Positions 9,539-64,000 of a stretch of 64,000 nt of DNA are shown one piece after another; position 1 is the first letter of the stretch; every line of letters starts with the position of its first letter. Location of the stretch: assembly GCA_001778235.1 (NCBI GenBank), contig MFGJ01000001.1, positions 69,302-133,301 of the forward strand, given 5' to 3'. The notes below the pieces were generated by a model. The model was not told where the DNA came from. It saw only the letters and a program-made list of their open reading frames with translations, and did no database searches. Origin of the DNA: Candidatus Falkowbacteria bacterium RIFOXYC2_FULL_36_12. Its GTDB lineage: Bacteria > Patescibacteriota > Patescibacteriia > UBA11705. Position numbers and translations under genes: made by a program.

Positions 9539-10016
9539 CACAAAACCTGCTATAAAAGGCAGACAAGAAATTTTCATTTAGGATATACCGAGCCGGAGCC
9601 TGGCATTACCTAAAACAAAAATCCCATGCTTGTCGTGTCTGCCTATCAAAACAGGTTTTATAACTAATTCTTGCGAATTAACAGTTAATAATATCATTAA
9701 ATTTTGACATTGTCAATAGAGTTTTTTTCTCTAAAACTAGACAATTTATTTTAGCTTGATTGTCTACTTGTATTATATCATTTAAATCATAACCAGCCAA
9801 ATAACAATATTTAATTTTCTATTCACACTTTATACACAACAAGACATTACTTATATGATTTTATAAGTATTTTTTATAAAGATAGTATTTTTTCTGAATT
9901 TTTAGCCTTTAGAGAAATATTTGAATTTAGACGGAAATAATACTTGATTAAATAAATGTTTATTTTTCTAATATAAAAACCAGCGAAAAGCTGGTTTTTG
10001 AAATTCTTTGAGTAGA

Positions 10017-27779: not shown

Positions 27780-29429
<1,650 letters not shown>

Positions 29430-29467: not shown

Positions 29468-29497
29468 AAAAGCGGGAATATACCCGCTTTTGTATTA
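29468..29497 (+). terminator. Intrinsic terminator after groEL
   Basis: aaagcgggaatatacccgcttttgtatt. Confidence 0.6.
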
Positions 29498-29499
29498 GC

Positions 29500-29640
29500 A
29501 AAAAAACACTCCAGCGAATAGCTGGTGTGTGCGTTTAGAGGAGAGGTTGTTGAAAGTAGTGGCTAGCAATGAAATTTAAATGTAAGTTGTTGATTTGTTA
29601 AAACAAGTTTTTTTTAGAATAAGTGATTGATTACGCTTCG
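29500..29640 (+). repeat. Repeat module A, copy 1. It ends in a hairpin plus T-run. A second copy lies at 63760..63903.
   Basis: cgaatagctggtgtgtgcgtttagagg...gtagtggctagcaatg...gtaagttgttgat...tttttttagaataagtgattgatt is ~80% identical to 63764-63903. Confidence 0.7.
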
Positions 29641-29815
29641 CGTCTTACTTTTTGGTGGCAAAAAGTAAGCAAAAACCACTGGGTGAACAAATGCGAATTG
29701 TTTTTGTCAAGTTCGTGGTTTTGATGACGCGCTTGTTCACCCAGACCCGATGCTTGGCATGTTTGTGGGGTTGAATGTATAAAGTAAGTTATCATTTTGC
29801 TATAGCAGGTTTTTT
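29620..29815 (+). ncRNA. Repeat unit 1 of a tandem structured-RNA-like family. It has a 5' module, a variable stem, a 3' module and a terminator.
   Basis: 5' aagtgattgattacgcttcgcg + perfect hairpin cttactttttggtggcaaaaagtaag + caaaaaccactggg; variable stem gggtgaacaa/ttgttcaccc; 3' cccagacccgatgcttggcatgtttgtggggttgaa; terminator tgctatagca + T-run. Confidence 0.45.
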
Positions 29816-29820
29816 GAAAA

Positions 29821-30020
29821 AAGTGATTGATTGCGCTTTGCGCCTTACTTTTTGATGGCAAAAAGTAAGCAAAAACCACTGGGGGCTTTAATTGCTACTT
29901 ATGAAAATTATTTTGTGTTTTAAACACGGCAAGAAAGCCCCCAGACCCGATGCTTACCGTGTTCGTGGGGTTGAATAATAAAGTATGTGATTGGTATTGC
30001 TAAAGCAAGTTTTTTTGACA
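29821..30020 (+). ncRNA. Repeat unit 2 of the same family. Its variable stem (gggggcttt/aaagccccc) is compensatory to unit 1.
   Basis: Same 5' and 3' modules as unit 1; only the middle differs, with stem pairing preserved; terminator ttgctaaagcaa + T-run. Confidence 0.45.
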
Positions 30021-30107
30021 CCCTGCCTGAAAGCCTTAGTCTGTCTCGACTTCACGATGAAGACGGGCAAGATGCGTTAAATGTTATTGTTGTTTATATA
30101 TTTAAAT

Positions 30108-30318
30108 TTGTCACTCTGAACTTGTTTCAGAGTATAAAGGGATAGCTTGATTATACCTTGATTATACCCTGAAATCCATCTTCGTTAAAACTTCGATGGA
30201 CAAGTAAATTCAGAGCCTGCCCTGAATTAATTTCAGGGGTGACAAGTGAGAGTGTTGGTAGCGCGCATTACGCCCCCAGATTTGCCTTCATCAAGATTAC
30301 GGCAGGCAAGACCCGAGG
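30108..30318 (+). repeat. Composite of the hairpin ccctgaa-N-ttcaggg (inverted and direct copies) plus a ~100-nt conserved element, the long-form 3' module. It is homologous to 58703..58825.
   Basis: ggtgacaagtgagagtgttggtagcgcgcattacgcccccagatttgccttcatcaagattacggcaggcaagacccgaggctggtcatgttcgtggggttt matches 58724-58825 with few substitutions. Confidence 0.65.
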
Positions 30319-30433
30319 CTGGTCATGTTCGTGGGGTTTAATATTACTGAAGTTTTATTTTATTTTTGACAATCTTGCGTATATTGTGTAAGCTGAAAAA
30401 TGATTTTGTCCTTTTCACCAGACCGGAGGGAAA

Positions 30434-35984: not shown

Positions 35985-36022
35985 TCCGCAACTTCGCATT
36001 AGGCGCAGCCATTATACGCAAT
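35985..36022 (+). repeat. GC-rich direct repeat, downstream copy
   Basis: See the upstream copy; ggcggacg/cgtccgc complementarity adjoins both. Confidence 0.55.
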
Positions 36023-36175
36023 TCAAAAAATATTTTTCTTTTAATTTACGGATCTTTTGATAGGCTTTAATAAGGAATAAATTTGATTTTTTTTTTGATT
36101 AGAGGGGAAATAAAGTGTTTTCTCCGCTATCGCACCGAAAACTATTTATAATAACAGATACTTAACTAAGTTTAT

Positions 36176-41855: not shown

Positions 41856-41869
41856 AAAATTTAGTTGGG

Positions 41870-41995
41870 TTTCAACAAATTGCAAATCCGCTACAAATCT
41901 ACAAATAGTTGGTTTCAACAAATTGCAAATCCGCTACAAATCTACAAATAGTTGGTTTCAACAAATTGCAAATTCACTACAAATCTACAAATAGT
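41870..41995 (+). repeat. Three tandem copies of a ~41-bp repeat
   Basis: ccgctacaaatctacaaatagttggtttcaacaaattgcaaat x3, nearly identical. Confidence 0.8.
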
Positions 41996-42368
41996 TGGGT
42001 AGTATTCTTTTAAAGGTGACACCGTCATTATTAAATAGTGCCAAGATTCCAAGCTTGAGCCCCGATTGGGATAAGTAACCTTTAACTTGGTCAAAATCCT
42101 TCCTTGATAAACGATCTTTACATTTTAATTCAAGAATAATTTTGTCTTCAACAAGAAAATCAAAGTAATATTGACCTACTACTTCATCTTTAAATTTAAG
42201 CTTCGCACAAAGCTCCTTCGCATGTTTTAAACCAATATCACGAAATTCTTTTGAAACAGCACTCTGGTAATGTTTTTCTTTGTGCCCTGGCCCTAATTCA
42301 TTATAAACCTCAAATAAAACACCCACAATCTTATAACTCAATTCTTTATAAATCACTTTCTCGATCAT
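41985..42368 (-). CDS. GxxExxY-family protein (PD-(D/E)xK-like)
   Basis: GVLFEVY motif and the overall pattern of the GxxExxY family (KEFRDIGL...LELKCK). Confidence 0.6.
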   Translation of the reverse strand: MIEKVIYKELSYKIVGVLFEVYNELGPGHKEKHYQSAVSKEFRDIGLKHAKELCAKLKFKDEVVGQYYFDFLVEDKIILELKCKDRLSRKDFDQVKGYLSQSGLKLGILALFNNDGVTFKRILPNYL

Positions 42369-53937: not shown

Positions 53938-54006
53938 ATACTTGAGATGTTCATAATTGAATGTTGTTGACTTTGTAACAAGTGCAGAGTGACAATTGTA
54001 ATTATA

Positions 54007-57600: not shown

Positions 57601-57620
57601 AATGTTTCACGTGAAACATT
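57601..57620. promoter_or_regulatory. 20-bp perfect palindrome aatgtttcacgtgaaacatt (copy 1); putative operator or recombination site
   Basis: Perfect dyad centred on CACGTG; an identical copy lies at 58450-58469. Confidence 0.5.
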
Positions 57621-57793
57621 TTATAATGTTATTATTTTTTAGAATATTTATATAACTTGAGTAAGCATTTATAAATATTCATATAGTGATCAATTGATGA
57701 TGAGATAACACATCTAATACCTAAAATATCCACTACACTATTTTAATCATACATACTAATATTGAGTATTTTGTGATTGAATTGTTAAATGAT

Positions 57794-58135
57794 TGATTTT
57801 AAAGTAAATTTAAACAAAATTTAGCTATTTGTATAGACTATTGTAGACAAACAGAAAATAAGTTAAATCCTGTTTTTAAAGTAAATTTAAACAAAAATAC
57901 GCGTTTGTATAGACCATTGTAGACATCTATGTGATATTTTCCGAGTAAATACCTATAATTTGCTAATAATCAACATTTTTATAGTAAATTTAAACAAAAA
58001 TTAGCGTTTGTATAGACTATTGTAGACATTTATAAAATTTTCTGTTAAAAATCTGAAATAACCCTACTTTTTTGATTTTAAAGTAAATTTAAACAAAAAA
58101 TAGCCCTAGATGTATAGACCATTGTGTACAAACAT
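57794..58135 (+). repeat. Array of four degenerate ~50-bp direct repeats (iteron-like)
   Basis: Core agtaaatttaaacaaaa...tttgtatagac[ct]attgtagaca at ~57797, 57875, 57977, 58075; spacers of ~28-50 bp differ. Confidence 0.7.
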
Positions 58136-58229
58136 GCTAAATTTTGGTAGTTATCAATAGTTTATCCACAGAATTTTGGTATTTTGGCTGTAATATTGGT
58201 GGAAAAACTATATACTTATTTTTATACCC

Positions 58230-58449: not shown

Positions 58450-58469
58450 AATGTTTCACGTGAAACATT
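58450..58469. promoter_or_regulatory. 20-bp perfect palindrome aatgtttcacgtgaaacatt (copy 2)
   Basis: Identical to 57601-57620. Confidence 0.5.
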
Positions 58470-58618
58470 TTTTATTTATAATAATATTTTTTTATTATTT
58501 TTACTAGAATTAAACATATTAAAGTGTCGTAAAATATTAATTATTTAATTATCAAAGAGTAAAAGTTTTGAAGAGTGATAATTAATATTCAAAACGCATG
58601 AAACAAGATTTCCTTTGG

Positions 58619-58919
58619 CCATGCACTATAAACAAGTTTAAGTGCATGGCGAGTAAGCTCGCTGTGGGAAAAGTTTCGAGTGAGGAATAAAAATTAATTA
58701 TTTATACCCTGAAACAAGTTCAGGGTGACAGGTGAGTGTGTTGGTGGCGCGCATTACCGCCCCAGACCTGCCTTCATCAAGATTACAGCAGGCAATCCCC
58801 GAGGTTAGTTATGTTCGTGGTTTTATCACGAGAGAAATTGTTTATACCCTGAAACAAGTTCAGGGTGACAAATTGGGAGATACTGAAACCATGCACTATA
58901 AGCAAGTTTAAGTGCATAG
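58619..58919 (+). repeat. Nested direct repeats. The outer hairpin ccatgcactataaacaagtttaagtgcatgg occurs twice. The inner tataccctgaaacaagttcagggtgaca occurs twice. The core is a ~100-nt conserved element.
   Basis: Outer copies at 58619-58649 and 58889-58919; inner copies at 58703-58730 and 58843-58870; core 58724-58825 is homologous to 30238-30318. Confidence 0.7.
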
Positions 58920-58966
58920 AGTGTAAGCTAAGGACAGGCTTCTCATCCTGTCTGTTTAAAATAAAA

Positions 58967-59654: not shown

Positions 59655-60629
59655 TTATTTATTTTTTTTTGATAATGGTTTGCGTTTATTGTGAAAAGCT
59701 TTGTGAACATCTCTAAGTTGTTGATTGGTAATGTGAGTATATATCTGTGTAGTTGTAATGGATGAATGGCCAAGAATTGATTGGACTGAACGAATATCAG
59801 CACCATTCATTAGTAAATCAGTAGCAAAGCTATGACGCATAGTGTGCGGTGTTACACTTTGGTTTATACCTACAAGCTGGGCGTATTTTTTTACTATTCG
59901 TTCTAAACTTCTCGGAGTTAAGCCAATAAAATCTTTTTCTTCTGCAGTTGAATTATTACGAGCTTCAGCGGCTTTATCATGACCAATAAACAAAAACAAG
60001 TTTTTATCTTTGCGAAGCTTTCGATATTCCTGTATCCAATAACGAGCTTGGTTGGATAGAAAGGCGACTCGAATTTTGCCACCCTTACCGCGGATAGAAA
60101 ATTCTGTTTTTTTTATATTTAAATCTTTTTTTAAGCTCGCAAGCTCTGATACACGCATCCCGGTTGAAAAGAATAATTCAAGAATGGCTTTATCACGAAA
60201 TTGAATTATTTTGGGATTTTTTGACTTCAGCGGAGCATCAAGCAAATTGTACAAATCACTGCCTTCAAGAAAACCAACATGGCGCATCTGCAGACGAGCT
60301 AGTTCAACCTTTTCCGGAGCCAATGAACTAATATCTCGCTTGGCTAAATATTTCAAGAATGAACGGATAGCAATCAAATGATAATTTTGAGTGTTTTTTT
60401 GTAATGATTCTTTTGTTTTTGGATCTTTGAACCGATTGAGCCAAAGGCGAAAAAGTCTAACCGCATCGAGACTGATTTTTTCTGGAGTAGTTATATTTGA
60501 GCTCTTGAGCCAACCAGAAAAACGACGCAGATAGAAGTCATAATTGCGAATAGTGCGCTCGGTGCGTCCTTTGGCGACTTCTAAATCCTGAAGAAAGTCT
60601 GTGATTAATTTATCCAGTTTTGAAGACAT
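59655..60629 (-). CDS. xerC: Tyrosine recombinase, XerC/XerD-like
   Basis: C-terminal catalytic pattern HTMRHSFATDLLMNGADIRSVQSILGHSSITTTQIYTHI with a plausible nucleophile Tyr; N-terminal SAM-like core-binding domain. Confidence 0.8.
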   Translation of the reverse strand: MSSKLDKLITDFLQDLEVAKGRTERTIRNYDFYLRRFSGWLKSSNITTPEKISLDAVRLFRLWLNRFKDPKTKESLQKNTQNYHLIAIRSFLKYLAKRDISSLAPEKVELARLQMRHVGFLEGSDLYNLLDAPLKSKNPKIIQFRDKAILELFFSTGMRVSELASLKKDLNIKKTEFSIRGKGGKIRVAFLSNQARYWIQEYRKLRKDKNLFLFIGHDKAAEARNNSTAEEKDFIGLTPRSLERIVKKYAQLVGINQSVTPHTMRHSFATDLLMNGADIRSVQSILGHSSITTTQIYTHITNQQLRDVHKAFHNKRKPLSKKNK

Positions 60630-61563: not shown

Positions 61564-63717
61564 ATGAATAAAAAACATGAATTCAAACTTGAATGGGCAG
61601 GCAAGGAGTTGAAAATCTCAACTGGAGTCCTAGCTCATCAAACAAATGGTAGTTGTCTAGTTCAGTATGGAGATACTGTTATATTAGCAACGGCGGTAAT
61701 AAATAAAGAAAAAAATGAGGGAATGGATTTTTTCCCACTGATGGTAGAATTTGAGGAAAAAATGTATGCGGCTGGAAGAATCAAGGGTTCTAGATTTATC
61801 AAAAGAGAAACTAGACCAACTGATGAAGCGATTTTGACTGCCCGACTGATTGACCGAGGATTGCGACCACTTTTTGATGAAAGAATTCGTCAAAATGTAC
61901 AAATCGTTGTGACTGTATTGCAACATGATGGAGAAAACGATCCAGATATTCCATCAATCATCGGTGCTTCTTGTGCCCTAGAATTATCTGACATCCCTTG
62001 GGACGGACCGATTGCTGGAATCAGAATCGGTAAAATTGAAAAAGAGTGGGTTCTAAATCCAAGCTATGAAGCACGGGACAAATGTGAATTTGAACTGACT
62101 GCTTGTTATTTTGGCGATAAAGTTATCAATATTGAAGCTAGCGCCAATGAAACTGATGAAAAAACAATGTATGAAGCATTTAAGTTTGGGTCAAAACATA
62201 TAAAAAGTGTTTTGCAACTACAAGAACAAATCAGAAAAGAACTTGGAAAAGAAAAATTCAAAATTGATTTTACTGAAGAAATTGATAGCGACGAAGTGCT
62301 TGATAAAAATCAAAAAGCTAGCTTGAAACAATTTGAAGATTTGAAAGCTGAAGCAATTGCATATGCTGACAAACATATTGATAAATATTTATTCGATGTG
62401 CCTGTAGGAACAAAAACTGAAAGAAAAGAAAAGGTAAGTGCTGTAAAAGAAGAAATGATTGAAATGCTGAAGAAAAAAAATGTTGGTAAAGAAAAAATAA
62501 AGAAAATATTAGAATTTTTTGACACTTTCATTGAAGAAAGGGTCAGCGAAGCTATTATCAAGAAATCAAAACGAATTGATGGACGAAAACTGGACCAAAT
62601 CAGAACATTGAACTCTGAAGTAGGCCTGATGAATAGACTTCATGGATCAGCATTGTTTGAAAGAGGTGAAACTCAAGTGCTTTCAATCGTAACATTGGGT
62701 GCGCCCGGTGATGAGCAAATGCTTGACGGCATGGAATTAACTGGGAAAAAAAGATTTATGCATCATTATAATTTTCCGCCATATTCTGTGGGTGAAGCAA
62801 GACCGATGCGAGGTGCTGGACGAAGAGAAGTTGGACATGGTGCACTAGCAGAGAAAGCGATCATGCCCGTATTACCAAAAAAAGAAGATTTTCCTTATAC
62901 AATCAGAGTTGTATCTGAAGTAATGGGTTCAAATGGTTCAAGTTCAATGGCTTCAACCTGCGGATGTTCACTAAGTCTGATGGACGCAGGCGTGCCGATC
63001 ACAACTCCGGTTGCGGGTGTGGCAATTGGACTGGCTTCAAATGAAAAAGGTGAATATAAAGTTATCACTGATATTCAAGATCTCGAAGATGGACAAGGTG
63101 GAATGGACTTCAAAGTTACTGGAACAAAAAACGGTATTACAGCTATTCAAATGGATACCAAAACCAGAGGTTTGAGCCTTGAGATTATTGAAGAAGCGTT
63201 GGAAAAAGGAAGAAAAGGACGAATGGAAATTTTAGAAGTAATGAGCAAGGCAATAGATAAACCAAGAGCTGAAATGTCAAAATATGCACCAAGAATAATT
63301 ACAATTAAAATTAATCCAGATAAAATCAGAGATGTTATTGGTCCTGGAGGAAAAATGATTAATGAAATCATTGATAAAACCGGTGTTTCAATTGACATTG
63401 AAGATGATGGAACAGTGTTTATTACTTCTGTTTCAGAAAATGGTAGCAAGGAAGCGGTTGAATGGATTGAAAGGTTGACCGAAGAAGCAAAAATCGGAAA
63501 AGTTTATGAGGGAACAGTCGTAAGACTAATGGACTTCGGAGCTTTTGTAGAAATTTTTCCAGGAACTGATGGGATGGTTCATGTTTCTGAAATTTCAAAA
63601 ACAGAGAGAGTTAATGATATAAAAAAATATTTGAAAGTTGGTCAAAAGGTTAAAGTTAAAGTAATGAAAATTGATGATCAAGGCAGAATAAACCTTTCAA
63701 TCAAGCAAGCTGAATAA
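61564..63717 (+). CDS. pnp: Polyribonucleotide nucleotidyltransferase (PNPase)
   Basis: Two RNase PH domains, KH (IGPGGKMINEII) and S1 (GKVYEGTVVRLMDFGAFVEI) domains. Confidence 0.95.
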   Translation: MNKKHEFKLEWAGKELKISTGVLAHQTNGSCLVQYGDTVILATAVINKEKNEGMDFFPLMVEFEEKMYAAGRIKGSRFIKRETRPTDEAILTARLIDRGLRPLFDERIRQNVQIVVTVLQHDGENDPDIPSIIGASCALELSDIPWDGPIAGIRIGKIEKEWVLNPSYEARDKCEFELTACYFGDKVINIEASANETDEKTMYEAFKFGSKHIKSVLQLQEQIRKELGKEKFKIDFTEEIDSDEVLDKNQKASLKQFEDLKAEAIAYADKHIDKYLFDVPVGTKTERKEKVSAVKEEMIEMLKKKNVGKEKIKKILEFFDTFIEERVSEAIIKKSKRIDGRKLDQIRTLNSEVGLMNRLHGSALFERGETQVLSIVTLGAPGDEQMLDGMELTGKKRFMHHYNFPPYSVGEARPMRGAGRREVGHGALAEKAIMPVLPKKEDFPYTIRVVSEVMGSNGSSSMASTCGCSLSLMDAGVPITTPVAGVAIGLASNEKGEYKVITDIQDLEDGQGGMDFKVTGTKNGITAIQMDTKTRGLSLEIIEEALEKGRKGRMEILEVMSKAIDKPRAEMSKYAPRIITIKINPDKIRDVIGPGGKMINEIIDKTGVSIDIEDDGTVFITSVSENGSKEAVEWIERLTEEAKIGKVYEGTVVRLMDFGAFVEIFPGTDGMVHVSEISKTERVNDIKKYLKVGQKVKVKVMKIDDQGRINLSIKQAE

Positions 63718-63730
63718 ACATAGCAAAAAT

Positions 63731-63754
63731 ACCGCTTCACAGCGGTTTTTTGTT
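63731..63754 (+). terminator. Intrinsic terminator after pnp
   Basis: accgcttcacagcggtttttt. Confidence 0.65.
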
Positions 63755-63759
63755 AACCT

Positions 63760-63945
63760 TAAAACCCACCGACGAATAGCCGGTATGTGCGTTTAAAAGA
63801 AAAACAATTGAATGTAGTGGCTAGCAGTGTAATTTAAGTGTAAGTTGTTGATGTTGCTATGGCAAATTTTTTTGAGAATAAGTGATTGATTTCGCTTTGC
63901 GTGGTCCACCGAAACCACGCACTATAAACAAGTTTAAGTGCATGG
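63760..63945 (+). repeat. Repeat module A, copy 2, followed by a cgtgg...ccacg hairpin and a copy of the cactataaacaagtttaagtgcatgg hairpin
   Basis: ~80% identical to 29500-29640; terminal hairpin shared with 58619-58649 and 58889-58919. Confidence 0.7.
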
Positions 63946-64000
63946 CAAGCAAGTTCGGTGCATGTTTTTGTAACCAGTTCTATTGAGATATAGTGATATT

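What the first reader, a model, noticed from the sequence alone, without database searches (positions are those of the whole stretch)
63760..64000. Second copy of repeat module A immediately after the pnp terminator, ending in shared hairpins
Region 63764-63903 is ~80% identical to 29500-29640, including gtagtggctagca, gtaagttgttgat and the terminator-like end followed by aagtgattgatt-cgct-tgcg. Both copies sit directly after the intrinsic terminator of a highly expressed gene (groEL, pnp). This copy continues into a cgtgg-tccaccgaaa-ccacg hairpin and then cactataaacaagtttaagtgcatgg. The latter is the same hairpin that forms the outer direct repeats at the tRNA-Arg locus. The family therefore has modular, shuffled architecture typical of mobile or recombining small elements. 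The window ends before the element does.
Basis: seen in the sequence. Interest (0 to 1): 0.5.

Follow-up and report, generated by a model that had tools for sequence, protein, structure and literature searches.

The report
Modular hairpin repeat array after pnp
The sequence after the pnp terminator is a real second copy of "module A", and it opens a roughly 525-bp array of hairpin-rich, non-coding repeat modules belonging to a lineage-restricted intergenic repeat family in an uncultivated Candidatus Falkowbacteria bacterium; the family is new but of a familiar general kind.

Summary
Window 63743-63902 is 78.75% identical to 29485-29643 (E 3e-35). Both copies start in the T-run of an intrinsic terminator (groEL, pnp).

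An identical metagenome contig extends the window. The element runs to about 64265, and mscS starts at 64379.

The host is Candidatus Falkowbacteria (candidate phyla radiation, CPR). In about 84 kb of contiguous sequence the family occupies three intergenic arrays: after groEL, between two tRNA-Arg genes, and after pnp. Two further module A copies and more arrays lie between housekeeping genes on other metagenome contigs.

Nothing matches Rfam, phages, plasmids or any real protein. Two relatives with 75-76% PNPase identity lack the modules at the syntenic loci.

Arrays are mosaics of at least eight modules:
- All arrays lie on the G-rich strand.
- Whole hairpins are gained or lost between otherwise near-identical units.
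- Variable stems are perfectly Watson-Crick paired (173 of 184 positions, one G-T, compensatory changes at 15 of 23 positions).

Best reading: non-autonomous, hairpin-based repeat DNA resembling BIME, BOX or MITE elements, which accumulates next to terminator-like hairpin-plus-T-run sites. A rival reading is an array of small RNA genes, and the data here cannot exclude it. No mobilising enzyme was found.

The parts
61564..63717 (+). pnp (polynucleotide phosphorylase) gene, the upstream neighbour of the array
   Evidence: 717-aa ORF. It carries RNase_PH, KH and S1 domains and is named PNPase of Candidatus Falkowbacteria RIFOXYD2_FULL_35.
63731..63752 (+). pnp intrinsic terminator (ACCGCTTCACAGCGGT plus T6), terminator-like on both strands
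   Evidence: L001 12168-12183, which equals window 63731-63746.
63743..63902 (+). Module A, copy 2: the terminator-proximal first module of the array
   Evidence: 78.75% identical to 29485-29643, E 3e-35. Aligned with three other copies.
63769..63783 (+). Module A hairpin CCGACgaataGCCGG, a terminator-type hairpin followed by a U-rich tail when read on the minus strand
   Evidence: 7 pairs, one compensatory. Copy 1 differs at one base from the clpP terminator hairpin at 9980-9994, and on the minus strand it is followed by T7.
63814..63852 (+). Conserved blocks GTAGTG-(short palindrome)-AGTG and TGTAAGTTGTTG of module A
   Evidence: Invariant columns in the alignment of the module A copies.
63854..63873 (+). 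Small hairpin TTGCtatgGCAA plus T7 (weak terminator-like site, the 'junction' element)
   Evidence: The stem changes in a compensatory way between copies: TTGTT/AACAA, TTGC/GCAA, TGCTA/TAGCA.
63874..63901 (+). Junction block GAGAATAAGTGATTGATTtCGCTTTGCG, the most conserved sequence of the family
   Evidence: Family D9. Seen in 9 units, and 8 of the 9 directly follow a T-run.
63898..63921 (+). Hairpin TGCGTGGT-ccaccgaa-ACCACGCA, overlapping the 5' arm of the next hairpin
   Evidence: P array positions 199-222.
63915..63960 (+). Hairpin module hpB (cCAcGCACT-ataaacaagttta-AGTGCATGG) plus its tail
   Evidence: Family D8: 89% identical to 58619-58664, with 58889-58934 the third member of the family. 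blastn gives 63908-63943 vs 58882-58917 at 92%.
63961..64000 (+). Continuation of the array. It runs on to about 64265 outside the window and includes an H2 hairpin, a CCGCC/GGCGG hairpin, a 12-bp S stem with a 44-nt loop, and two E modules
   Evidence: L001 12400-12702.
29485..29643 (+). Module A, copy 1, directly after the groEL terminator
29485..30360 (+). groEL-downstream array: module A, two ~200-nt units, an inverted hpC hairpin pair without a gene, then the H1 and E modules
58601..58940 (+). Array between tRNA-Arg(cct) and tRNA-Arg(tct), with nested direct repeats in the order hpB, hpC, core (H1+E), hpC, hpB
   Evidence: Families D4, D8 and D13.

Best explanation
Module A copy 2 is the first, terminator-proximal module of a ~525-bp composite array (63741 to about 64265). 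The array belongs to a lineage-restricted family of non-coding, hairpin-rich, modular intergenic repeats in Candidatus Falkowbacteria.

Shown:
- The arrays fill the gap between the intrinsic terminator of one housekeeping gene and the promoter region of the next.
- Every array lies on the G-rich strand.
- The arrays are mosaics of at least eight modules: the module A 5' part, the junction block, hairpins H2, S, H1, hpB, hpC and hpD, and the E tail.
- Whole modules are gained, lost, nested and duplicated as blocks.
- The variable stems keep perfect Watson-Crick complementarity with essentially no wobble pairs.

Inferred mechanism:
- The units are non-autonomous repeat DNA that spreads or is reshuffled at the DNA level through single-stranded hairpins, by insertion or by recombination and gene conversion.
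- Insertion prefers the position just 3' of a hairpin-plus-T-run site.
- Each unit ends in its own small hairpin plus T7-8. That recreates the target, so units pile up head-to-tail behind a gene's terminator.
- Read-through or local transcription of the arrays is likely but secondary.

The enzyme responsible is unknown. A small GIY-YIG nuclease flanked by inverted hpC hairpins on a related contig is the only candidate seen.
For: - Real and multicopy: (E 3e-35); identical in at least 6 assemblies.
- Restricted to three intergenic arrays in about 84 kb.
- More arrays and two more module A copies lie between housekeeping genes on other contigs.
- Absent from 22 kb of syntenic sequence in each of the two relatives with 75-76% PNPase identity.
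- No Rfam, phage, plasmid or viral-contig match.
- All 4 module A copies start at the T-run that ends the upstream gene. Eight of 9 junction blocks follow a T-run.
- All modules but one inverted hpC hairpin are co-oriented. All arrays lie on the G-rich strand of their flanks in every locus, including L108, where the neighbouring genes are on the other strand.
- Block-wise indels occur between near-identical units: a 40-nt GC palindrome inside the H2 loop and a 31-nt H1 hairpin, L106 vs L108.
- hpD is nested in the hpC loop, with a further nesting inside hpD.
- Nested direct duplications of 35 and 41-46 nt occur at the tRNA locus (families D8 and D13).
- H2 and S stems: 173 of 184 positions Watson-Crick, 1 G-T, compensatory double changes at 15 of 23 positions, against a mean of 118 when partners are permuted.
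- S loops are always 42-46 nt.
- Inverted hpC hairpins flank an 86-aa GIY-YIG gene in L103/L107. The same inverted pair without the gene is at window 30105-30240.
Against: - There is no direct evidence of movement. All assemblies of this organism are identical across the arrays.
- There are no terminal inverted repeats or short target-site duplications at array ends.
- No transposase, HUH/Y1 enzyme or reverse transcriptase appears in about 94 kb of annotated context.
- The GIY-YIG association rests on one locus. A 64%-identical homologue elsewhere is an ordinary operon gene flanked by an amidase gene and a DsbA-family gene.
- The regular unit layout (a conserved 5' block, structured body, then hairpin plus T-run) is also what a tandem array of small RNA genes would look like.
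- Both strands fold equally far below shuffled controls (z about -5.1 and -5.2), so folding statistics do not favour either strand or either reading.
- Only a fraction of the genome could be examined.
Confidence: 0.5

Rival explanations
1. The arrays are tandem small-RNA genes. On the plus strand, each ~170-200-nt unit would be a structured RNA that starts at AAGUGAUUGAUU and ends at the small hairpin plus U7-8. Alternatively, module A would be a ~70-110-nt small RNA gene on the minus strand, lying tail-to-tail with groEL or pnp. It would have a promoter in the junction, about 50 nt of unstructured body, then the CCAGC/GCUGG hairpin with a U-rich tail, or the neighbour's bidirectional terminator.
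For: - Regular unit layout with a hairpin plus T7-8 at each unit end.
- Stems covary.
- The plus strand is G+T-rich and folds more stably than the minus strand in 7 of 8 arrays.
- Minus-strand sigma-70-like sites occur in some junctions: TTAACA-17-TAAATT, TTGCCA-17-TACACT, TTAGCA-17-TATTAT.
- The module A hairpin differs at one base from the clpP terminator hairpin, and in copy 1 it is followed by T7 on the minus strand.
- The pnp terminator is bidirectional.
- Tandem small RNA arrays with one promoter and terminator per repeat are known, for example NsiR1 in Anabaena (my own knowledge).
Against: - No acceptable plus-strand promoter lies upstream of the unit start. The -35-like and -10-like boxes are 14 or 22-23 nt apart (read from the sequence).
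- Minus-strand promoter matches are inconsistent between copies and no more frequent than in shuffled sequence.
- Module A alone does not fold better than shuffled controls (z from -1.6 to +0.3).
- The variable stems contain essentially no G-U pairs (1 in 184), which is unusual for RNA-level selection.
- Units differ by whole-hairpin insertions and deletions.
- No Rfam family matches.
Confidence: 0.25
2. The arrays are host cis-acting 3' elements. They would be read-through extensions of highly expressed mRNAs (groEL, pnp, tRNA) whose hairpins protect the upstream mRNA from 3' exonucleases or act as backup terminators or insulators. Their spread would be incidental.
For: - The arrays sit directly behind terminators of highly expressed genes and upstream of the next promoter.
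- They contain many stable hairpins plus repeated T-runs.
- REP/BIME elements in E. coli have this effect (my own knowledge).
Against: - Other arrays sit next to unremarkable genes: a sigma-factor-like gene, murI-like racemase, prepilin peptidase.
- One array lies antisense to both of its neighbours (L108).
- The relatives manage without the arrays at the same loci.
- This reading does not explain the modular indels or the invariant 14-nt H1 loop.
Confidence: 0.12
3. The modules are remnants of, or still encode, a small protein, for example a type I toxin or the 3' end of a mobile gene. Part of the array (H1+E) reads as PQTCLHQDYGRQ(D/A)P(R/M)L.(M/V)FVG(L/F)N.
For: This frame is open in 10 copies, and the Leu position uses CTT, CTG, TTG and TTA.
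Against: - There is no consistent start codon, and the 31-nt H1 deletion breaks the frame.
- By my own count on the sequences, variable sites are spread evenly over codon positions (6, 6 and 7).
- A six-frame peptide search of 5.8 billion proteins found nothing at E <= 1.
- HMMER against 1.84 billion representatives found only a 52-aa ORF called inside the L105 array itself.
Confidence: 0.03
4. The units are guide-RNA-like stem-loop arrays of the TIGR-Tas kind, which are known from CPR bacteria. The 42-46-nt loops clamped by perfect stems would carry spacers.
For: - Perfect variable stems enclose loops of constant size but divergent sequence.
- TIGR stem-loop arrays occur in CPR bacteria (PMC12045711).
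Against: - No box C (RUGAUGA) or box D (CUGA) motifs are conserved at the loop ends (read from the loops listed).
- No gene recurs next to the arrays, and no Nop-like domain was detected in the neighbours.
- Units are 170-200 nt, not 36-nt guides.
- The loops have no matches in phages or plasmids.
Confidence: 0.03

Closest known systems
BIMEs / REP elements of enterobacteria (bacterial interspersed mosaic elements)
   Same: Both are extragenic and sit at the 3' ends of genes. Both are mosaics of palindromic units plus conserved linker motifs, are multicopy, and are non-coding. Both have a strand relationship with replication. (The properties of BIMEs are from my own knowledge.)
   Different: There is no sequence similarity to any described element that could be searched. 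Units here are 170-200 nt with four or five helices, not 35-40-nt palindromes. All modules are co-oriented rather than alternating. No RAYT (TnpA_REP) gene was seen in about 94 kb. The stems here are perfect, whereas REP stems are imperfect.
BOX elements of Streptococcus pneumoniae (boxA-(boxB)n-boxC)
   Same: Both have a directional A-(unit)n-end modular build with a variable number of internal units. Both are intergenic, form stable hairpins, and have no known dedicated transposase. (From my own knowledge.)
   Different: The host is an unrelated lineage. The modules here are longer and far more diverse. They start at terminators and each carries its own hairpin plus T-run. Sequence relatedness to BOX was not tested.
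MITEs and other small palindromic mobile elements (Correia, RUP, Nezha, RPE)
   Same: Both are small, non-autonomous, hairpin-forming repeats restricted to a lineage. They insert into one another, and gene-less derivatives of a gene-carrying unit exist (the hpC pair with and without the GIY-YIG gene).
   Different: The arrays here have no terminal inverted repeats and no short target-site duplications. Their tandem, co-oriented growth is not typical of MITEs.
Hairpin- or terminator-targeting elements (IS200/IS605 and REP-targeting IS; group IIC introns that insert after intrinsic terminators)
   Same: These share the proposed preference for a hairpin-plus-T-run site and a strand bias with replication. 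(Behaviour of these families is from my own knowledge.)
   Different: No Y1 transposase, TnpB or reverse transcriptase was found. No group II intron domains or Rfam hits were found. The units are too small for an intron.
TIGR-Tas stem-loop arrays (PMC12045711)
   Same: Both occur in CPR bacteria and are arrays of hairpins with variable palindromic stems and loops of roughly constant size.
   Different: The arrays here have no box C/D motifs, no associated Tas gene, and much larger multi-helix units.

Membership tests
Any Rfam RNA family (including group II introns, HEARO, CRISPR repeats) | A covariance-model match at or near the gathering score | tested here: not met
   At gathering threshold the window yields only three tRNAs. 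Permissive scans of both arrays give only chance-level hits (at most 25 bits, all below gathering).
REP/BIME | A short (about 20-40 nt) imperfect palindrome with a conserved GTAG head, with copies in alternating orientation within a BIME | tested here: not met
   All modules but one inverted hpC hairpin are co-oriented. The stems are perfect and 8-12 bp long, with loops of up to 46 nt. A GTAG occurs in module A (GTAGTG) but not at the other hairpins.
REP/BIME | A cognate RAYT (TnpA_REP, Y1 HUH) gene in the genome | not testable with these tools
   None among the Pfam-annotated genes of about 94 kb. The rest of the genome could not be fetched, and the genome-contig scan did not return the host.
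MITE | Terminal inverted repeats and a short target-site duplication flanking each copy | tested here: not met
   The array ends (T-run/GAGAATAAGTGATTG... and ...GTGGGGTTGAAT) are not inverted copies of each other. Only the hpC pair around the GIY-YIG gene looks like terminal inverted repeats.
MITE / mobile element in general | Presence/absence polymorphism at orthologous sites | tested here: inconclusive
   The modules are absent from syntenic loci of the relatives with 75-76% PNPase identity, and tRNA spacers differ in length (397, 541 and 661 nt). However, all strains of the host itself are identical across the arrays.
Tandem small-RNA gene array | One promoter and one terminator per unit | tested here: inconclusive
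   A hairpin plus T7-8 occurs at each unit end on the plus strand. No plus-strand promoter with acceptable spacing was found. Minus-strand promoter-like sites are inconsistent and at chance frequency.
Structured RNA (generic) | Covariation with G-U intermediates on one strand, and better folding than shuffled sequence on that strand only | tested here: inconclusive
   Compensatory changes occur at 15 of 23 stem positions, but only 1 G-T in 184 positions. z-scores are equal on both strands (-5.11 and -5.18).
TIGR-Tas array | Box C/D-like motifs flanking dual spacers, and an adjacent Tas (Nop-domain) gene | tested here: not met
   The loops listed lack conserved RUGAUGA/CUGA motifs. The neighbouring genes differ at every locus and none carries a Nop-like domain. 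Criteria taken from PMC12045711.
Protein-coding gene or type I toxin | A conserved ORF with a start codon, homologues, and substitutions biased to third codon positions | tested here: not met
   By my own count on the sequences, variable sites fall 6, 6 and 7 over the three codon positions.
Phage or plasmid sequence | Similarity to known phage, plasmid or viral-contig DNA | tested here: not met
   No match in phages or plasmids. Three IMG/VR pattern scans were negative apart from one chance hit inside a phage coding sequence.

The most novel reading that the evidence does not exclude
The family could be the non-autonomous progeny of a previously undescribed hairpin-targeting mobile element whose autonomous form is a small (86-aa) GIY-YIG nuclease gene bracketed by inverted hpC hairpins. 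The related contig L103/L107 carries that form, and window 30105-30240 carries the gene-less form. In this reading the nuclease would cut at or beside extruded hairpins. Repair would then duplicate or insert hairpin modules. That would account for the perfect variable palindromes, the nested hairpin-in-loop insertions, the 35-46-nt flanking duplications and the leading-strand orientation.
Probability: 0.1. Interest if true: 0.75.

Novelty: new member of a known kind. Interest (0 to 1): 0.4.

Why it matters
CPR (Patescibacteria) bacteria have very small, streamlined genomes, yet about 2.4% of the 74 kb examined here is taken up by large modular hairpin arrays. These arrays match nothing in Rfam, phage, plasmid or protein collections.

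If the elements are mobile, they define a new repeat family with an unusual target (terminator-like hairpin plus T-run) and an unusual signature (perfect but variable stems), and the enzyme that moves them is unknown. If they are expressed, they would add a set of structured RNAs to a lineage whose regulation is almost unknown.

There is also a practical consequence. Several metagenome contigs of this organism end at or near the arrays, so the repeats probably contribute to breaks in its assemblies.

Tried and rejected
- **Genome-contig scan with AAGTGATTGATTNCGCTT.** It returned only single chance hits in unrelated genomes.
- **Metagenome scan with a 22-nt junction pattern.** It gave 7 loci, of which 5 are real and 2 (L104, L109) are chance.
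- **Viral-contig scans, phage and plasmid BLAST.** Nothing was found.
- **Rfam, strict and permissive.** Nothing was found.
- **Coding hypothesis for the H1+E module.** Rejected on the evidence.
- **GIY-YIG homologues.** This is a broad family of roughly 95-aa proteins. The homologue I inspected is an ordinary operon gene, so the hairpin-flanked arrangement is not a general property of the family.
- **Search for strain polymorphism via identical PNPase, S15 and GroEL proteins.** All assemblies are clonal across the arrays. The only differences are an unrelated restriction-modification island near 36 kb and an unrelated left end of contig L004.
- **Promoter scans.** These were inconclusive.
- **Tyrosine recombinase at 59655-60629.** It is syntenic in relatives that lack the repeats, so it is not specific to the family.
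- **TIGR-Tas, DGR, integron attC and group IIC intron readings.** I considered these and set them aside because their defining motifs or genes are absent.
- **MAFFT alignment of trimmed stems.** It shifted the register, so pair counts were made directly instead.

Full report
**1.

blastn aligns window 63743-63902 with 29485-29643 at 78.75% identity over 160 nt, E 3e-35. The repeat finder reports the same pair as families D3 and D9.

Both copies begin inside the T-run of an intrinsic terminator:
- groEL is 27792-29429 (Cpn60), with a 9-bp stem at 29468-29491.
- pnp is 61564-63717, with a terminator at 63731-63746 that was called on both strands.

The hairpin TGCGTGGT-ccaccgaa-ACCACGCA is at 63898-63921. 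The following hairpin plus tail (63915-63960) is 89% identical to 58619-58664, and 58889-58934 is a third copy. Those two are the outer direct repeats between the two tRNA-Arg genes (family D8).

**2. Extending the window**

The PNPase protein is encoded on 18 public contigs. Contig L001 is identical to the window over 12,437 bp, and window coordinate equals L001 coordinate plus 51,563.

The pnp-mscS spacer is 662 bp, with mscS starting at window-equivalent 64379. Repeat modules occupy 63741 to about 64265.

The host is named Candidatus Falkowbacteria bacterium RIFOXYD2_FULL_35 on the identical protein. It is a member of the candidate phyla radiation (CPR).

**3. Extent of the family**

In the window, plus 10 kb on each side (about 84 kb), the modules occur only in three intergenic arrays:
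- 29485-30360, after groEL
- 58601-58940, between the two tRNA-Arg genes
- 63741-64265, after pnp

There is also one short hairpin match near 53970.

A metagenome scan with the 22-nt junction motif returned five real loci: L103, L105, L106, L107 and L108 (L103 and L107 are the same place). They carry the same modules at 77-100% identity but share no genes with the window. Where I checked the neighbouring genes (L103, L106), they are ordinary: a sigma-factor-like gene, a racemase, prepilin peptidase, GAPDH, and an RseP-like protease.

These loci add two further module A copies, in L103/L107 and in L105. All four independent copies begin at the T-run that ends the upstream gene.

**4. Anatomy**

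Module A is composite.
- Its 5' part has a hairpin (CCAGC-gaata-GCTGG, with one compensatory change among copies). It also has the conserved blocks GTAGTG-(short palindrome)-AGTG and TGTAAGTTGTTG.
- Its 3' part is a junction: a small 4-5-bp hairpin whose arms change in a compensatory way, a T7-8 run, and the block GAGAATAAGTGATTGATTnCGCTTyGCG.

The same junction precedes each ~170-200-nt unit (families D9 and D10). A unit then contains, in order:
- H2, a 9-11-bp perfect stem with a tetraloop.
- A linker, CAAAAG.GC.
- S, an 8-12-bp perfect stem (11-12 bp in all but one unit). Its base CTGGGG/CCCCAG is conserved and its top varies. It always encloses 42-46 nt.
- Optionally H1, CCTGCC-ttcatcaagattac-GGCAGG, with a nearly invariant loop.
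- An E tail, ..CCCGA..TTCGTGGGGTTGAAT.
- ATAAAGTAAGTgat, which leads into the next junction.

Other modules are hairpins hpB, hpC (TATACCCTGAA-acaag-TTCAGGGTGACA) and hpD. All modules in all arrays are co-oriented, apart from one inverted hpC.

**5. Evidence bearing on mechanism**

(a) Stems. Across eight units, H2 and S arms are Watson-Crick paired at 173 of 184 positions. There is one G-T, and all non-pairs sit at the outermost positions. Fifteen of 23 positions show compensatory double changes. Permuting partners gives a mean of 118 and a maximum of 162. Perfect but variable palindromes without wobble pairs point to constraint or templating at the DNA-hairpin level more than to ordinary RNA-level selection.

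(b) Block indels. Two near-identical units at different loci (L106 and L108) differ by a 40-nt GC-rich palindrome inside the H2 loop and by the presence of H1. hpD sits inside the hpC loop, and one hpD carries a further nested insertion.

(c) Nested duplications. The tRNA array reads hpB, hpC, core, hpC, hpB, all in direct orientation, with duplications of 35 and 41-46 nt (families D8 and D13).

(d) Strand. The window has positive GC skew throughout. In every locus the arrays lie on the G-rich strand of their flanks, including L108, where both neighbouring genes are on the other strand.

(e) Lineage restriction. The two nearest relatives (PNPase 76% and 75% identical) keep the gene order but have none of the modules in 22 kb each. 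Their tRNA-Arg spacers are 397 and 541 nt against 661 nt here. They share only an older palindrome, TTTCACGTGAAAC.

(f) A possible autonomous form. On L103/L107 an 86-aa GIY-YIG protein (Pfam E 1e-18) is bracketed by inverted hpC hairpins. Window 30105-30240 holds the same inverted pair with about 22 nt in place of the gene. This is a single locus. A 64%-identical homologue elsewhere is a plain operon gene.

**6. Strand and transcription**

Module A alone does not fold better than shuffled sequence. The full pnp array folds about 5 standard deviations below shuffles on both strands.

On the plus strand:
- Each unit ends in a weak hairpin plus a T-run.
- No promoter with acceptable spacing precedes the unit start.

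On the minus strand:
- Some junctions carry sigma-70-like sites.
- The module A hairpin behaves like a terminator. Copy 1 is followed by T7, and it differs at one base from the clpP terminator hairpin at 9980-9994.

A tail-to-tail small RNA gene therefore cannot be excluded. The promoter matches are no more frequent than in shuffled sequence, so I rank this reading second.

**7. Readings tested and set aside**

- The H1+E region reads as an open peptide with varied Leu codons. However, it has no start codon, the frame breaks in H1-less copies, and variable sites are spread evenly over codon positions. No protein in 5.8 billion sequences or 1.84 billion representatives matches, other than an ORF called inside the L105 array itself.
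- Rfam, phage, plasmid and viral-contig searches are negative.
- TIGR-Tas stem-loop arrays of CPR bacteria (PMC12045711) share the hairpin-array look. They require box C/D motifs and a Tas gene, and neither is present.

**8. Conclusion**

The finding is real.

The best-supported account is a new, lineage-restricted family of mosaic, hairpin-based intergenic repeats. It is comparable in kind to BIME/REP, BOX and MITE families but belongs to none of them. The repeats accumulate head-to-tail on the leading strand behind terminator-like sites.

The proposed target-recreation mechanism and any role for a GIY-YIG nuclease are inferences. Section 5 gives what was shown.

Noticed in passing
window 57793-58145 and about 58164; L001 15100-15165 (window-equivalent about 66663-66728): There are four spaced copies (76-103 nt apart) of TTTTAAAGTAAATTTAAACAAAA...TGTATAGACnATTGTAGACA (4 hits against 0 expected by chance), followed by a TTATCCACA DnaA-box-like site. 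An inverted copy of the motif with two TTATCCAC boxes lies downstream of the window. GC skew does not switch anywhere in the window, so this is not obviously the replication origin.
   Followed up: partly
window 41868-41996; L106 4789-4804: There are three tandem copies (two identical, the third 95% identical) of a 43-nt unit, GGTTTCAACAAATTGCAAATCCGCTACAAATCTACAAATAGTT. Its core, CTACAAATCTACAAAT, also occurs next to a repeat array on metagenome contig L106.
   Followed up: partly
window 57601-57620 and 58450-58469; L110 about 5248; L111 about 7213: A perfect 20-nt palindrome, AATGTTTCACGTGAAACATT, occurs twice, flanking tRNA-Arg(cct). Its core, TTTCACGTGAAAC, and a nearby GTGTCGTAAAAC are conserved in the tRNA spacers of two relatives. 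This is probably an old regulatory or terminator site, unrelated to the repeat family.
   Followed up: partly
L103 5987-6244 (minus strand) = L107 9065-9322; window 30105-30240: An 86-aa GIY-YIG nuclease gene is bracketed by inverted hpC hairpins and followed by a tandem array of hpC units with nested hairpin insertions. The window has the same inverted hairpin pair without the gene.
   Followed up: partly
window 9975-9999: The bidirectional terminator of clpP, AAAAACCAGCGAAAAGCTGGTTTTT, differs at one base from the module A hairpin CCAGCGAATAGCTGG. This suggests the module A hairpin is, or derives from, a terminator.
   Followed up: partly
L110 5438-5470 and 5400-5530: The relative with 76% PNPase identity has a hairpin, GGCCCACC-ttcactaaggtttt-GGTGGGC, resembling the CCGCC-tacactaaagtttc-GGCGG hairpin of the pnp array (window-equivalent about 64046-64070). 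It also has a 13-nt direct repeat of the tRNA-Arg(tct) end (TGGTGTCCGAGGC). One module may therefore be older than the rest, or this may be an integration scar.
   Followed up: no
window about 35997-36140 onwards (L130 18353 onwards): A strain from another sample is identical up to about 36.0 kb. From there it carries a restriction-modification pair (N6_N4_Mtase plus RE_CfrBI) in place of the window's OTCase-like and methyltransferase genes.
   Followed up: partly
L004 1-820 (left of window 60633): One assembly joins unrelated sequence immediately upstream of the rpsO region, where the window has the tyrosine recombinase gene. This could be a chimeric assembly or a structural variant.
   Followed up: no
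window 58997 and 59655 regions (starts of contigs L117, L120, L121, L122): Several short metagenome contigs of this organism end at or near the tRNA-Arg repeat array, as expected if the repeats break assemblies.
   Followed up: no
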